Positions 19,292-38,172 of a stretch of DNA of 40,015 nucleotides are shown piece after piece. This stretch comes from a phage. The translations under genes and the position numbers were made by a program. The notes below the pieces were generated by a model, which did no database searches, had not been told where the DNA came from, and saw only the letters and a list, made by a program, of their open reading frames with translations. How positions within the stretch are numbered: position 1 is the first letter of the stretch; the number at the start of each line of letters is the position of its first letter. The DNA lies in sequence record PV889368.1, one strand, 5' to 3'.

Positions 19292-19641
19292 CTTTCTGTA
19301 TTCTCCCATTACTGGAAGTGTCGGACTATATCATCAGTCTTTGAGGTGACTGTCTGGCGCTTCGGGTTACGTGGGAATCTCACCCACGGCCCTACTCCTT
19401 TCGGATAGTCTCTACGCCTTCCACTCTCTAATCCACCCACAGGCGGCTGAGAACGCCACATTGAATATTTCGGAAGTATCCATCCTGATTCAATTTATGT
19501 GACGTAGGGATTATGCAGCCAGTCTCAGTGGCCTCAAGAATTAACTTCTTGCCTCTCATACATCCTCCCTATGGCTTGGCTCGGTATTGTCCCATTAGGA
19601 GTTCACCGAGTTCACCAGATTTAATGTGCACCATGATGTTA
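19292..19641 (-). ncRNA. Candidate ORF-less group I intron (350 nt) interrupting the DNA polymerase gene
   Basis: Exon 1 ends in U (..GUGCAU); the intron contains GUGCAC able to pair with it including a terminal U-G wobble (P1); the last intron base is G; R-like GUAGAGACUAUCC and S-like GAUAUAGUCC elements occur in that order ~30 nt from the 3' end; no ORF inside. Confidence 0.7.
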
Positions 19642-21657
19642 ATGCACCCATGCCATGTACGCAAAGTCACCTTCCCAGCCGTGAACATACCCTGCCTCTT
19701 CGAGCATACGTTCAGTCTCCACAATCCAGTGCTTACAGACTACCGCACCATCACCTTGAAGTAAGGCGTTCAGTGCTGAGTGTGGAGACCGGATGTGGAT
19801 ACGGCGACCATCAAGTCCACGCAACCAACGGCGCTTCCACTTGACGATATTCTCACCGTCCACCCACTTAGAGTCCGAGATTAACGTATTACTCACAGCT
19901 TCCCTGAGGTCCTTGATGGCTGGTGTACCCTCAATGAATTTCTTCATGAGAGCTGAACCTTCCTTCTTACCACCTCCTACTATCAGTCCAATCTTAGCGG
20001 CCCCTGCACCATACAGGAACGCATAGATGAACGTCTTAGCGTTGTTACGGAAAGCCTCATGGTCGTGGTTAGACTTATCGCGTGGGACGTTAGGTGCTAA
20101 CCCAGCGTTTACTGCGTTGGCCCAGTGGATGTCACCTTCGACCACAGTCTTCGCATAGTCACCACCATCAAACGGAGCCGCTCGGTTCCCCAGACAACGA
20201 AGCTCAAGACCTGAGGCATCCACACCCACTTGAATCCAAGGGTCTGGCTTACCATCCGTCTTGTTCCAAGCTGCACCGAAAGCACCACGGCAAGTCTCAC
20301 CATATGGAGCACCGTTAGCCGGGACCTGAGCCATGTTTGGTGCGCTATGAGTCGCACGTCCGGTTACTGCCCCGCATGGGTTGATTGAACCGTGCATACG
20401 TCCGTCTGGACCTACAAGTTTCAACCATGCGTTCTTACCTTCAGCCGCCTGACCGATTCGCTTCTGTACTACCAGATACTCACGGACCAGCTCTACGCAA
20501 GCCTGAGCCTCTGCGTCTGGTAGCTTAACGTGTTCTAACGTCTCGTCATCGACTACAGGTTTCCCGGTGTCAGTGAAGTCAACAGGCTCCCAGCCACGCT
20601 CCATCAAGACTTTTGCCAAGTGGTCTCCGCTTCCCGGATTAAACTCAACGTAAATGATTGGCGTGAATGGTGCTCCCTCCATCGTGTCTCGCGTATCGAG
20701 TTCACAAGGTTCAAGACCTAAGCGTTGAGCTTTGTTCTTCGGCTTCTTAAATATGCCACCGACCTTAGGATACACGACTCGCGGATACTTCGGAAGGTCC
20801 TTACCTGTCCGTGGATGCCTGAAGAACTCCTTGCCACCCTTCGGTGCGTACCAGCTACCGAAAGTCGAACGCAGCTTGTCAAGCAACTCCGCACGCTTGA
20901 CGGTGAGTTCACGATATAAGCCTTCGACCATCTCGGTGTTCATCGGATAGCCATTACGTTCCATCTTCGCACAGGTCCACGCAGCATCATGTTCCAGACG
21001 CAACGCATAAATCTGGTCGAAAGCGAACTGTTCAGACTGGAAGTAATACTTGTCAGTCAGGAACTTCTTGAACAACGCCAGTGTGACCACAACGTCTTGA
21101 ACGTTATAGTCCAGCATCTCCTGAGACGGGAACAACCATTCGTCCCCAGCCTTATATTCGATACCTTCAGCCTTGCACTTGGCAATGTAATCGTGTTTGT
21201 ACTCACCTTTCATCTCACCGAGACGATAACCCCAAGCCTCAAGAGATTGACGTCCCATCATATTAGGTGGCAGACGACCAGCTTTCACCGCGCCCATGTC
21301 GGAGAACTTAATGTTTGGATACATCAAGCGGCCCAGCACCAAGGTATCAATCATCTTGTGTTTCGGGAAGTTAAAGCGTTTCCCAAAGTACAGACGCTTC
21401 AGCTTGTCAATAGCCGGGACGTCGTAGTTGATACCGTTGTGGAATACCAGCATACCATCAGGTGATGCGGCAATCTCTTCCACCTTCTGCACATACTCTT
21501 TGAAGCCCCCGACGATACCGACCATCGGAGCTACCCCATACTTAAGGGTCTCATTCGACTCGGCGTTAATCAGGACCCCACAGTGGAACTGGGATACTGT
21601 ATCAAGGAGACCGTTTGTCTCGATGTCAGAACCCCAGATACTCTTAAGGTCAAACAT
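19642..21657 (-). CDS. DNA polymerase gp5, exon 1 (672 aa)
   Basis: Start moved to ATG 21657 (GGAGGA RBS); GSDIETNGLL, FHNG..YDVPA, EAWGYRLGEMKGEYK, GRATHSAPNMAQVP, GLELRCL, NAKTFIYAFLYGAG and GDFAYMAWVH match T7 gp5; TAA follows WVH where T7 continues. Confidence 0.92.
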
Positions 21658-35509: not shown

Positions 35510-35668
35510 TTAATTACACTGAGAGACCAGAGAACATACGAGAGTCTCGACCCTCCCGACCCACTGACTTCCAGCAGTAACGCCAGCAGCAAGTAGAACA
35601 GCAGCAAGAAACCTGTATGTAGCTCGATTGGTCGCCAGAGCTTTAAGTACAGCTTTGGTCTTTGCCAT
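35510..35668 (-). CDS. gp19.5-position small protein (52 aa)
   Basis: Not in the ORF track; ATG 35668 with AGGAGG RBS, downstream of the phiOR-like promoter; hydrophobic middle segment. Confidence 0.4.
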   Translation of the reverse strand: MAKTKAVLKALATNRATYRFLAAVLLAAGVTAGSQWVGRVETLVCSLVSQCN

Positions 35669-35816
35669 ATGCTACATACCTCCTGTATCTATGGTCGGTG
35701 ACTATCTGTATTGGAGGGTGATATTAATCATAATCCCTCCGACTATATGGAGACCTAGAGTCCTTACCTATATGCTAACTTTTAGTCGGCATACTATAAG
35801 GTCCCCCCGGTCCCCC

Positions 35817-35839
35817 CATCCCTATAGTGATAGTTAAGT
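35817..35839 (-). promoter_or_regulatory. Phage RNAP promoter (phiOR-like) near the right genome end
   Basis: Minus strand CTTAACTATCACTATAGGGATGGGGGG, flanked by the direct repeat GGGGGGACCGGGGGGACC. Confidence 0.8.
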
Positions 35840-35852
35840 TAACCTATTGAAT

Positions 35853-36395
35853 TTACTTGTGGTTTCTATGGGTCCTATCACGCTTAGGGGACCGTCGGTT
35901 TACTGCGTATTCCTTGTGCTTCTCAGTGCGTAGAGCATCAAGCCACACCTCTAGTTCCTCTATTGAATCTGAGGTCTTCGTGAAGCACTTACCTTGTAGG
36001 CGCAACTGAGCGCGATACTTTCCGGTAGGCTTGAAAAAGCTGATACCTTTGGGTAGACCATTAGTCTCGCCACCTCCTGAGTTCCATCTGTTCTCTAATG
36101 CTGTTACTAACCTGTAGTTATCTGGCCTGTCGTCAAGTCTATCACCATTGATATGGTCAACCATCATGCCAGAAGGTATACGACCCACTACTAGGCTGTA
36201 GATGATTCTGGCACGCCTATAGCGGCTACCAAGAACCTTCACGATTGCGTACCCAGACGGATGGACTGAATGTCCCATGACCTCGCCTGGCTTCTTGTTA
36301 GAGCCTTTATAGGGCTTCTTGCACACCAACTCACCATCTACATAAGCATAGTGATTAAAGAGGGCCACCCTGTCGATGGCCTTCTGTTTACTCAT
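35853..36395 (-). CDS. HNH homing endonuclease with an AP2-like DNA-binding domain (180 aa)
   Basis: HNH motif region VDHINGDRLDDRPDNYRLVTALENRWN; GISFFKPTGKYRAQLRLQGK resembles an AP2 domain; ATG with GGAGGA RBS 14 nt after the terminase stop. Confidence 0.8.
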   Translation of the reverse strand: MSKQKAIDRVALFNHYAYVDGELVCKKPYKGSNKKPGEVMGHSVHPSGYAIVKVLGSRYRRARIIYSLVVGRIPSGMMVDHINGDRLDDRPDNYRLVTALENRWNSGGGETNGLPKGISFFKPTGKYRAQLRLQGKCFTKTSDSIEELEVWLDALRTEKHKEYAVNRRSPKRDRTHRNHK

Positions 36396-36408
36396 GTTTC
36401 TCCTCCTA

Positions 36409-38172
36409 TTAGTGGAACGTAACGTATGACCCTAGTCCCATCTCGTCGTCCGTATCGTGAGTTACCCGGACCCCATTGTCCCAGAACTCAGTGTGGATGG
36501 ACTCGAATCCTTTACGTGGGTTCTCCATCTGTTCCTCCAGCCATTCCTCAGTGACTTCACGTTCGCCTTTGTTGGCATCCTTAGCCATAGACTCAACGAA
36601 GAACTGTACACCGATAGCCAGCGCATCAAGTCGGTCATCGTGTGCCAAGGCTCCACGTTCACGAGAGATACGGGTCATCTGGTAGAAGAGAGAGTAGATA
36701 GGGTTACGAACACCATCCTTATCAGAGGCTGACTGATAGTCTTGGACGATAGCAGCAGCGTTGACGATAAGTCGGTGAGACCCCATGATAGGCTCCAGAA
36801 CGTCGCAGATGCGGAGTTCCTTCTGACCCTTACTCTTCACTTCTGTTACAGCAGCAGGATGGATACGGGCCGCTACAGGCTTGAATAGCTCAAGGTACAT
36901 ACCATCACCGAAGTTACCCTCAATGACGTATTCGTTGACCTTCCACTTACGACCAATCTTAGCCAAGGCTTCCAGAGTAGAGTCTTCATAACCACCACGC
37001 ATACCACCCACTTCCATAGCGAAGATGTAGCCGTTGAGCTGATACAGTACCGCATATCCAGTTTCATCCTTACCACGACCACTGGGGTCAATGACCAGAA
37101 TCTTCTGGGTGTATGAACTGAAGGCAGAACCTACAGTCTGATACGTGTGGTACGAGTCACCCATAAGTCCAACGTTAGGAACGTCCTCACGCTTGTTCTG
37201 AGGGTTCGGCAACCATTGGTAGACCATTGGGCTGGACTCTGGGTCCAAGTCTGCTACGATAAGGTCACGTAGCTTCAGAGGGTACTTCTCAGCATCACTC
37301 AGGTTCGGGTTAAGCATGAACTGTAGAGCGAAGCCAGCTTTACCGTATGACAGCTCACGTTCCTTCAGGTCCGTATCATCAAATCGTACCTCATCGGTCG
37401 GACGCCAGTAGAAGGACTCAGGGTCCTCTTCTAGTTCTGCCTGAAGCATAGGAGCCAGACGGTCGCCGTAAGACTGCCAGTCCTTCCTGTCGCGTGGATA
37501 ACGAGCGGGCCAAATAGTAGTGGTATACCCACGACCTTCCAGCTCACGATACAGGGTCATCTCGTTCTGAGGAGTACCCAGATAGATGATTGTACCTCCC
37601 GGCTTCAGGATAGCGTCGAACTCTTTCACAAGCTCTGACAGTCGGTCTCGCGCAGCCTGAGTCGCAGAGTTGTTAGGAACCTCCACGTCATCGGCAATCA
37701 GGATGTCAGCACGGCTACCAGTCAACTGACCAGTGATACCAACTGACTTAACAGAAGGTGAGTGGTCTGGCTTGGCTGGCCCAACGTCGAAGCTGATAAC
37801 CGCATCCCGCTGTCCCTGCTTAGGTTTGAGTTCCTGAAGCTGAGGCATGAGGTCGATGATTCGCTTGATGAAGATGGAGTTAGCATCGGCTCGCTCCTTT
37901 GAGGCCGACACAATCATGAACTTCAAGTCTGGGTTGTTCCATAGCTTCCAGACCACGAAGGCACACGTAATGAAGGACTTCCCGATACCACGGAACGCCT
38001 GTAGGATGAAACGCCTGTTGTCCCCAGCCGATAGTTTCTTCGCCATGTCAATCTGACAGCGAGTCGGGACTGGGAGTGACAGAGCTTTCCATAGAACGAA
38101 CAGGAAGAACACGAAGTCTGCCTTCATACGGGCAGTCATTAGCGCCTGACGCGCCACTAAGTCTTTACTCAA
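36409..38172 (-). CDS. Terminase large subunit (gp19)
   Basis: [128 protein letters not shown] match T7 gp19; probable TTG start with AAGGAGG RBS. Confidence 0.95.

What the first reader, a model, noticed from the sequence alone, without database searches (positions are those of the whole stretch)
35853..36395. Free-standing HNH endonuclease between large terminase and phiOR
A 180-aa HNH/AP2-like endonuclease gene is inserted between gene 19 and the phiOR promoter/gene 19.5 position, which are adjacent in T7. Together with the intron in gene 5 this indicates selfish-element traffic in this genome. HNH nucleases next to terminase genes in other phage groups can also assist packaging.
Basis: partly seen in the sequence, partly recalled or inferred. 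Interest (0 to 1): 0.5.

Follow-up and report, generated by a model that had tools for sequence, protein, structure and literature searches.

The report
Free-standing HNH homing endonuclease gene
This is an intact selfish "homing endonuclease" gene sitting just after the DNA-packaging gene of a K1F-like (T7-family) coliphage; the same gene is already annotated in about a dozen related phages, so the finding is correct but ordinary.

Summary
The ORF is real and sits exactly at 35853-36395 on the minus strand (180 aa). The window is a Kayfunavirus (K1F-like T7 relative) read in reverse. The protein has an I-HmuI-like HNH nuclease core with the catalytic residues D80, H81, N93 and N102 intact, followed by an AP2-type DNA-binding domain. 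The gene starts 13 nt after the stop codon of gene 19 (large terminase) and ends 13 nt before the phiOR-type promoter. About 90% of related records have an empty site. Fifteen of about 179 records carry this gene at the same site. Five carry a different, 28%-identical HNH gene at the same junction. All 11 copies examined are intact, and dN/dS is 0.06-0.14. The packaging-helper idea is not supported: the gene is dispensable in the genus, it is the wrong HNH subfamily, and the T7-type terminase has its own nuclease domain. A 97.8%-identical protein is already annotated "HNH homing endonuclease" in phage JSS1. Two modest extras emerged. The gene comes as a 669-bp block that also replaces the spacer and leader around phiOR. 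Its interior is far more diverged at synonymous sites than its flanks.

The parts
36409..38172 (-). Gene 19, large terminase subunit (context; left flank of the element)
   Evidence: 587-aa ORF. Pfam Terminase-T7_RNaseH-like E=6e-38 and Terminase_6N E=3e-5. Annotated as terminase large subunit in relatives.
36396..36408 (-). 13-nt spacer TAGGAGGAGAAAC carrying a strong Shine-Dalgarno sequence. This is the left junction of the block, immediately after the gene 19 stop codon.
   Evidence: Sequence read. Homology with the empty allele of ST31 ends at 36410. A near-identical junction and RBS string (differing at 1-3 positions) precedes the unrelated 138-aa HNH gene of CR44b and KE05.
35853..36395 (-). 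HNH-AP2 homing endonuclease ORF, 180 aa
   Evidence: AlphaFold2 model with a 46-sequence alignment, mean pLDDT 84.5. All 11 orthologous copies are intact at 543 bp. dN/dS 0.06-0.14.
36081..36209 (-). HNH (beta-beta-alpha-metal) catalytic core, aa 63-105, with D80, H81, N93 and N102
35907..36059 (-). AP2-type DNA-binding domain (three-stranded sheet plus helix), about aa 113-163
35819..35839 (-). phiOR-type phage RNA polymerase promoter core. It is the only segment inside the block that is shared with the empty allele.
   Evidence: Exact match to the phage's promoter consensus. 21/21 identical to ST31, CR44b and KE05.
35741..35818 (-). Block-specific 78-nt transcript leader that forms a long hairpin. 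It replaces a non-homologous 110-nt leader of the empty allele.
   Evidence: Found only in records that also carry the HNH gene. Fold z-score -3.6; the empty allele has a different hairpin. Right boundary of non-homology at 35741/35740.
35510..35668 (-). Gene 19.5 (context; right flank)
   Evidence: 52-aa ORF. Annotated 19.5 in CR44b. 94-99% identical across relatives with or without the HNH gene.

Best explanation
This is a functional free-standing homing endonuclease gene (HEG) of the I-HmuI-like HNH_3 family. An N-terminal beta-sheet DNA-binding region and a beta-beta-alpha-metal nuclease core are fused to a C-terminal AP2 DNA-binding domain. The gene lies in the gene 19 to phiOR intergenic region of a Kayfunavirus.

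Shown here:
- the domain architecture;
- intact catalytic residues;
- a presence/absence/alternative-occupant polymorphism at one fixed junction;
- strong purifying selection;
- no transposon-type end repeats.

Inferred:
- The gene is translated from late read-through transcripts of gene 19, using its own strong RBS.
- In a mixed infection the enzyme binds a long asymmetric site in the HEG-less allele and nicks or cuts it near the 19/phiOR spacer.
- Recombinational repair from the HEG-carrying genome then copies the whole 669-bp block, with some flanking sequence, into the recipient.
- The carrier is immune because the about 95-nt spacer and the first about 40 nt of the ancestral leader, where the target most likely lies, are absent from its own allele.
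For: Family and fold:
- Pfam HNH_3 E=1.8e-14.
- The family profile hits I-HmuI at E=3.4e-8 and AP2 domains at E=5e-6.
- D80, H81, N93 and N102 are conserved.

Sporadic distribution at one site:
- 15 records carry a copy with at least 80% aa identity. Each of the 10 whose locus was fetched has it between 19 and 19.5, and the hit coordinates of the other five are consistent with that.
- About 160 records have the empty-type spacer.
- Five records carry a different, 28%-identical HNH_3 gene at the same junction.
- Carriers belong to several Kayfunavirus species.
- Flank identity to the window does not separate carriers from non-carriers.

Functional constraint:
- 11 of 11 copies are intact.
- dN/dS is 0.06-0.14, with dS up to 1.35-1.5.

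Other points:
- Ro45lw and CHRF_30001 show raised divergence in the last 130 codons of gene 19 (dS 0.52-0.70, against 0.25-0.34 further upstream). This is compatible with co-converted flanks.
- No flanking direct or terminal inverted repeats.
- HEG presence/absence differences are a known feature of T7-like phages (PMC4925675, PMC8861465).
Against: - No cleavage or homing data exist for this protein or any close relative.
- The target site and the type of break (nick or double-strand) are inferred only by analogy with I-HmuI.
- The HNH interior is far more diverged at synonymous sites than the ends of the block and the flanks: dS is about 1.35 against 0.15-0.22. Simple recent homing with co-conversion would instead make the gene and its flanks equally similar. 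The history must therefore include repeated recombination among old alleles.
- Presence/absence alone cannot tell gain from loss.
Confidence: 0.8

Rival explanations
1. Packaging helper: the HNH protein works with the adjacent large terminase to cut concatemers, as HK97 gp74 does in cos phages.
For: The gene is immediately downstream of the terminase gene and about 0.8-1.3 kb from the genome's right end. The literature notes HNH genes near terminase genes (PMC3592412; discussion in PMC8861465).
Against: - About 90% of Kayfunavirus records, including K1F and ST31, lack any gene at this site and are viable phages.
- The protein matches HNH_3 plus AP2. It does not match the classical HNH family PF01844 even at E<=1.
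- It has only two cysteines (C25, C137), so it has no CxxC zinc sites (sequence). PMC3592412 describes [CxxC]2 sites for terminase-associated HNH proteins.
- The terminase is T7-type and has its own RNaseH-like nuclease domain.
- T7-type genomes have direct terminal repeats, not cos ends (terminal repeats annotated).
Confidence: 0.03
2. Domesticated or beneficial nuclease: the gene is kept because it helps the carrier. It might damage co-infecting HEG-less relatives (exclusion), or its AP2 domain might bind near phiOR. On this view it is not purely selfish.
For: - Very strong purifying selection over deep synonymous divergence: dN/dS about 0.06 at dS above 1.
- Intact in every copy.
- The block carries its own promoter-proximal leader.
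Against: - Only about 8% of related records carry it. That fits a selfish element at low frequency better than a generally useful gene.
- Purifying selection is also expected for a HEG that must keep invading empty sites.
- No evidence of any regulatory site.
Confidence: 0.12
3. Inactive remnant: an ORF left over from an old invasion that no longer encodes an active nuclease.
For: No experimental activity data. Many phage HEGs are in decay.
Against: - Catalytic residues are intact.
- There are no frameshifts or stops in the 11 copies, despite about 20% nucleotide divergence.
- dN/dS is 0.06-0.14 in all domains except the last 18 residues.
Confidence: 0.05

Closest known systems
The same gene in other Kayfunaviruses (JSS1 AOZ65182.1 'HNH homing endonuclease', PE3-1, Ro45lw gp49, phiYIO1-1 gp50, SR04, Zappy, pO91, CHRF_30001, Esher7)
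   Same: Same 180-aa length, same position between gene 19 and phiOR, and 84-98% aa identity. It is already annotated as an HNH or homing endonuclease in several records.
   Different: This window carries its own allele. It is closest to JSS1 (97.8% aa). It is mosaic relative to SR04 (identical N-terminal part, diverged AP2 helix) and relative to the phiYIO1-1 group (diverged interior).
I-HmuI (Bacillus phage SPO1 intron-encoded HNH homing endonuclease, PDB 1U3E)
   Different: I-HmuI is intron-encoded, and its C-terminal DNA-binding modules are helical rather than AP2. Only 21-24% identity. From the literature I-HmuI is a nicking enzyme; whether this protein nicks or cuts is unknown.
T7 gp3.8 and the '3.8B' HNH gene of CR44b, KE05, KE14 and KE18
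   Same: Same HNH_3 family: T7 gp3.8 is 34.6% identical over aa 60-164. The 3.8B gene occupies the very same junction after gene 19, behind a near-identical 13-nt RBS string.
   Different: The 3.8B protein is 138 aa, only 28% identical, and lacks the N-terminal 40 residues. It leaves the ancestral promoter-proximal spacer and leader in place.
HK97 gp74-type terminase-associated HNH proteins
   Same: An HNH-superfamily nuclease encoded next to a terminase gene.
   Different: Different Pfam family, no zinc-binding cysteines, not conserved within the genus, and a T7-type rather than a cos-type packaging system (PMC3592412).

Membership tests
HNH_3 / I-HmuI-like HNH endonucleases | Beta-beta-alpha-metal HNH motif with the general-base His and the metal-binding Asp/Asn residues | tested here: met
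   Pfam PF13392 E=1.8e-14, above the cut-off. D80, H81, N93 and N102 align with I-HmuI D74, H75, N87 and N96. D80, H81 and N93 are invariant, and N102 at least 90% conserved, across 46 homologues. All four are conserved in all 11 orthologues.
HNH_3 / I-HmuI-like HNH endonucleases | Overall fold similar to a solved member | tested here: met
HNH_3 / I-HmuI-like HNH endonucleases | Site-specific DNA nicking or cleavage activity | not testable with these tools
   Needs purified protein and a substrate.
AP2 DNA-binding domain (PF00847) | Three-stranded sheet packed on a helix; sequence match to AP2 profiles | tested here: met
Free-standing homing endonuclease gene | Intergenic position, not inside an intron or intein | tested here: met
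   The gene lies between the gene 19 stop codon and the phiOR promoter. The only Rfam hit in the window is the gene 5 intron.
Free-standing homing endonuclease gene | Sporadic presence at one fixed site among close relatives | tested here: met
   15 of about 179 related records carry it, and each of the 10 fetched loci has it at the same site. The rest are empty or hold a different HEG. Carriers and non-carriers are interleaved in flank similarity.
Free-standing homing endonuclease gene | Co-conversion tracts in the flanks | tested here: inconclusive
   Ro45lw and CHRF_30001 show raised divergence in the last 130 codons of gene 19. The other carriers do not. The flanks are mosaic in all genomes.
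Free-standing homing endonuclease gene | Cleavage of the empty allele and super-Mendelian inheritance in crosses | not testable with these tools
   Requires mixed infections and cleavage mapping.
Terminase-associated HNH (HK97 gp74 type) | Classical HNH (PF01844) with zinc-binding CxxC pairs | tested here: not met
   HNH_3 is the only Pfam hit at E<=1. The protein has only two cysteines, C25 and C137. The CxxC feature is as described in PMC3592412.
Terminase-associated HNH (HK97 gp74 type) | Conserved, essential partner of the terminase in all relatives | tested here: not met
   Absent from about 90% of Kayfunavirus records, including K1F and ST31.
Transposable insertion element | Terminal inverted repeats or a target-site duplication at the block ends | tested here: not met
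   No repeats bracket 35741-36409.

The most novel reading that the evidence does not exclude
The 669-bp block (RBS, HNH-AP2 gene, its own copy of the phiOR promoter and a private leader hairpin) is a composite mobile unit. It has persisted for more than one synonymous substitution per site under strong purifying selection. The ends of the block are kept nearly identical between alleles. This could mean that the nuclease serves the carrier phage, for example by damaging the phiOR/packaging-signal region of co-infecting HEG-less relatives, rather than being a passive parasite.
Probability: 0.12. Interest if true: 0.5.

Novelty: already known. Interest (0 to 1): 0.2.

Why it matters
The practical value is correct annotation: this is a dispensable selfish nuclease gene, not part of the packaging machinery. 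The site after gene 19 is a recurrent landing place for HNH genes in K1F-like phages. That matters to anyone engineering these therapy-candidate phages, because the interval tolerates insertions. It also matters to anyone comparing their genomes, because differences here are due to mobile elements and not to host range. The three-state polymorphism (empty, this gene, or a different HNH gene) offers a convenient natural system for studying homing and competition between HEGs in T7-like phages. It does not change any current concept.

Tried and rejected
- Single-sequence AlphaFold2 gave an unusable model, pLDDT 40.8. It was replaced by a run with a 46-sequence alignment.
- phmmer of the single protein against PDB sequences found nothing meaningful. 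A family profile was needed.
- The first word-indexed homologue search returned only 4 proteins. The profile search and the exhaustive search showed a very large family: 27,225 representative clusters at E<=1e-3, but only 2 at E<=1e-30.
- I looked for paralogues of the gene elsewhere in the window by tblastn and by Pfam on nine other small ORFs. None was found.
- I suspected that a 43-aa ORF inside the gene 5 intron (19428-19559) was an HNH remnant. hhalign against the family profile gave no support, probability 0.3%.
- I looked for a closer empty-site relative of CHRF_30001 to map a co-conversion tract. None close enough exists in the phage collection.
- I checked whether the block's leader is conserved next to the nearest out-group homologue (P0008, 52% identical, metagenome contig L016). 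Only the presence of a phage-type promoter after the gene and a G-run at the transcript start are shared, which is too weak to claim.
- The JSS1 gene 19 dN/dS value is an artefact of a one-codon indel and was ignored.

Full report
**What is there.** The window is a complete, circularly permuted genome of a Kayfunavirus (K1F-like member of the T7 group, Autographiviridae). It is read as the reverse complement, so the genes lie on the minus strand. The best whole-genome matches are Kayfunavirus phages at 92-94% identity over about 80% of the sequence. The ORF listing gives a 180-aa ATG ORF at 35853..36395 on the minus strand, exactly as reported. Immediately upstream is gene 19 (36409..38172), which matches Pfam Terminase-T7_RNaseH-like and Terminase_6N. 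The 13 nt between the two genes read TAGGAGGAGAAAC, a strong ribosome-binding site. Thirteen nt after the ORF's stop codon lies a phage-polymerase promoter core at 35819-35839. It matches the window's own promoter consensus exactly. The window holds 13 such sites, 12 of them on the minus strand, where about 1 is expected by chance. Gene 19.5 follows at 35510..35668.

**What the protein is.**
- Pfam HNH_3 matches aa 63-102 (E=1.8e-14), and PHROG 99 'HNH endonuclease' matches at E=2e-40.
- The single sequence finds nothing among solved structures.
- A profile of 46 homologues hits the SPO1 homing endonuclease I-HmuI (1U3E, E=3.4e-8) over the N-terminal and HNH part.
- The same profile hits the plant AP2/ERF domains WRI1 (E=5e-6) and TEM1 (E=1.6e-4) over the C-terminal part.
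- An AlphaFold2 model built with that alignment is confident, with mean pLDDT 84.5. The single-sequence model was not, at 40.8.
- Window residues D80, H81, N93 and N102 align with I-HmuI D74, H75, N87 and N96. D80, H81 and N93 are invariant, and N102 is at least 90% conserved, in the 46-sequence alignment. All four are conserved in all orthologues.
- The family is very large: 27,225 representative clusters at E<=1e-3. This particular clade is tiny, with 2 clusters at E<=1e-30.

**Distribution and boundaries.** In the phage collection, 15 records encode a protein at least 80% identical; every other hit is below 60%. The 15 records are JSS1, PE3-1 (two records), SR04, Zappy, phiYIO1-1, Emlis, Bia, Midid, ECO104 4-5-2, pO91, Esher7, Ro45lw (two records) and CHRF_30001. 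In every locus fetched the gene sits between 19 and 19.5. They belong to several Kayfunavirus species: PE31, Ro45lw and SFPH2.

About 179 records share the conserved segment just upstream of 19.5. About 160 have the empty-type spacer; these include K1F, ST31, TM1 and CY1. Five records (CR44b twice, KE05, KE14, KE18) carry a different 138-aa HNH_3 gene, annotated '3.8B', at the same junction. It is only 28% identical to the window protein, yet it follows a near-identical ATAGGAGGAGAAA string.

Against the empty allele of ST31, homology stops at 36410 and resumes at 35740. A 669-bp block therefore replaces 226 bp, and only the 21-bp promoter core is shared inside it. The 78 nt after the promoter (35741-35818) occur only in records that carry the gene. 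This stretch folds into a long hairpin (z=-3.6). The empty allele has a different hairpin in the same place. pO91 is an intermediate form: the block leader, then a (CA)n run, then the distal part of the ancestral leader. No direct or inverted repeats bracket the block, which argues against transposition.

**Is it functional?** All 11 copies examined are intact 543-bp ORFs. Pairwise dN/dS is 0.06-0.14, with a median of 0.07 over 47 pairs.

One observation was unexpected. Synonymous divergence between the window allele and the phiYIO1-1/Emlis/Esher7/ECO104 group is about 1.35, and it reaches 1.5 against pO91. The adjacent gene 19 has dS of only 0.15-0.22 in the same pairs. The divergence is confined to the interior of the ORF. 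The first about 50 nt, the last about 60 nt, the promoter and the leader are 93-100% identical. SR04 and Zappy show the opposite mosaic: an identical 5' half and a 67%-identical patch over the AP2 helix. The gene is thus a patchwork of old alleles recombined inside conserved ends. Simple recent homing does not explain this, and I record it as unexplained.

Flank identity to the window does not separate carriers from non-carriers. Ro45lw and CHRF_30001 have raised divergence in the last 130 codons of gene 19, which is compatible with co-converted flanks.

**Mechanism.**
- Shown: the architecture, the catalytic residues, the polymorphism, the purifying selection, and the absence of sigma-70 promoter-like sites in the interval.
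- Inferred: the gene is expressed from late read-through transcripts. The enzyme recognises and nicks or cuts the empty allele. Repair from the carrier genome then copies the block. Self-immunity follows because the spacer and proximal leader of the empty allele are missing from the carrier. pO91 retains the distal leader, so the target is more likely in the 95-nt spacer or in the first about 40 nt of the leader.

**Packaging role.** This is not supported.
- The gene is missing from about 90% of the genus.
- It is HNH_3 plus AP2 rather than the classical HNH family.
- It has two cysteines and no CxxC pairs, whereas terminase-associated HNH proteins have [CxxC]2 zinc sites (PMC3592412).
- The terminase is T7-type and has its own nuclease domain.

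**Known or new.** JSS1's 97.8%-identical protein is already annotated 'HNH homing endonuclease'. Ro45lw's is listed as 'putative HNH endonuclease' in its genome paper (PMC9866566). Papers on T7-like phages routinely note differences in HEG content (PMC4925675). A second HEG site, upstream of gene 19, is described for Hafnia phage Ca and CR44b (PMC8861465). I found no experimental work on this protein. Verdict: a correct observation of an already annotated, ordinary element, with some modest population-genetic curiosities.

Noticed in passing
window 35713-35740: A conserved 28-bp hairpin just upstream of gene 19.5 (GGAGGG, 16-nt loop, CCCTCC) is in flipped orientation here. The same is seen in phiYIO1-1. 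ST31, SR04, pO91, CR44b and KE05 have the other orientation. It gives a 100% match as an inverted copy. This looks like a loop inversion between 6-bp inverted repeats and is independent of the HNH gene.
   Followed up: partly
window 19302-19651 (- strand): There is a group I intron in the DNA polymerase gene: Rfam RF00028, 54.7 bits, full-length match. Exon 1 ends ...AYMAWVH and exon 2 starts DELQIACRT.... The intron is only about 350 nt and holds no ORF above 50 aa. Ro45lw has a homing endonuclease ORF annotated at this position. A 43-aa intron ORF showed no similarity to the HNH family.
   Followed up: partly
window 38169-38172 (18.5/19 junction); L006 2875-3126, L009 3140-3394: Relatives such as phiYIO1-1 (gp48), pO91, CR44b and Hafnia phage Ca carry another homing-endonuclease-like ORF between gene 18.5 and gene 19, overlapping the terminase start. 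That site is empty in this window. Gene 19 is therefore flanked by two HEG landing sites in this genus.
   Followed up: partly
window 35741-35822 versus L001 1155-1268: The transcript leader downstream of phiOR exists in two non-homologous versions. Each folds into a long imperfect hairpin (z=-3.6 and -2.6). They may be alternative RNase III-type processing or stabilising structures. The window version begins with a tandem GGGGGGACC duplication (35800-35817).
   Followed up: partly
L009 (pO91) about 640-700: pO91 has a (CA)n dinucleotide run that joins the HNH-linked leader to the distal part of the ancestral leader. This looks like a recombination scar or an intermediate form of the block.
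   Followed up: no
HNH ORF interior, window about 35930-36350: Synonymous divergence between alleles is about 6-8 times that of the adjacent gene 19. The ORF ends, the promoter and the leader stay 93-100% identical. This mosaic pattern is unexplained.
   Followed up: partly
L016 (metagenome contig, 1615 bp): The nearest out-group homologue (P0008, 52% identical, 197 aa) lies between T7-like promoter sequences (CTAAACTATCACTGTTAGGAGA type). It is downstream of a gene fragment whose C-terminus looks like that of a tyrosine integrase, by my reading of its motifs only. This hints at a temperate T7-like element.
   Followed up: no
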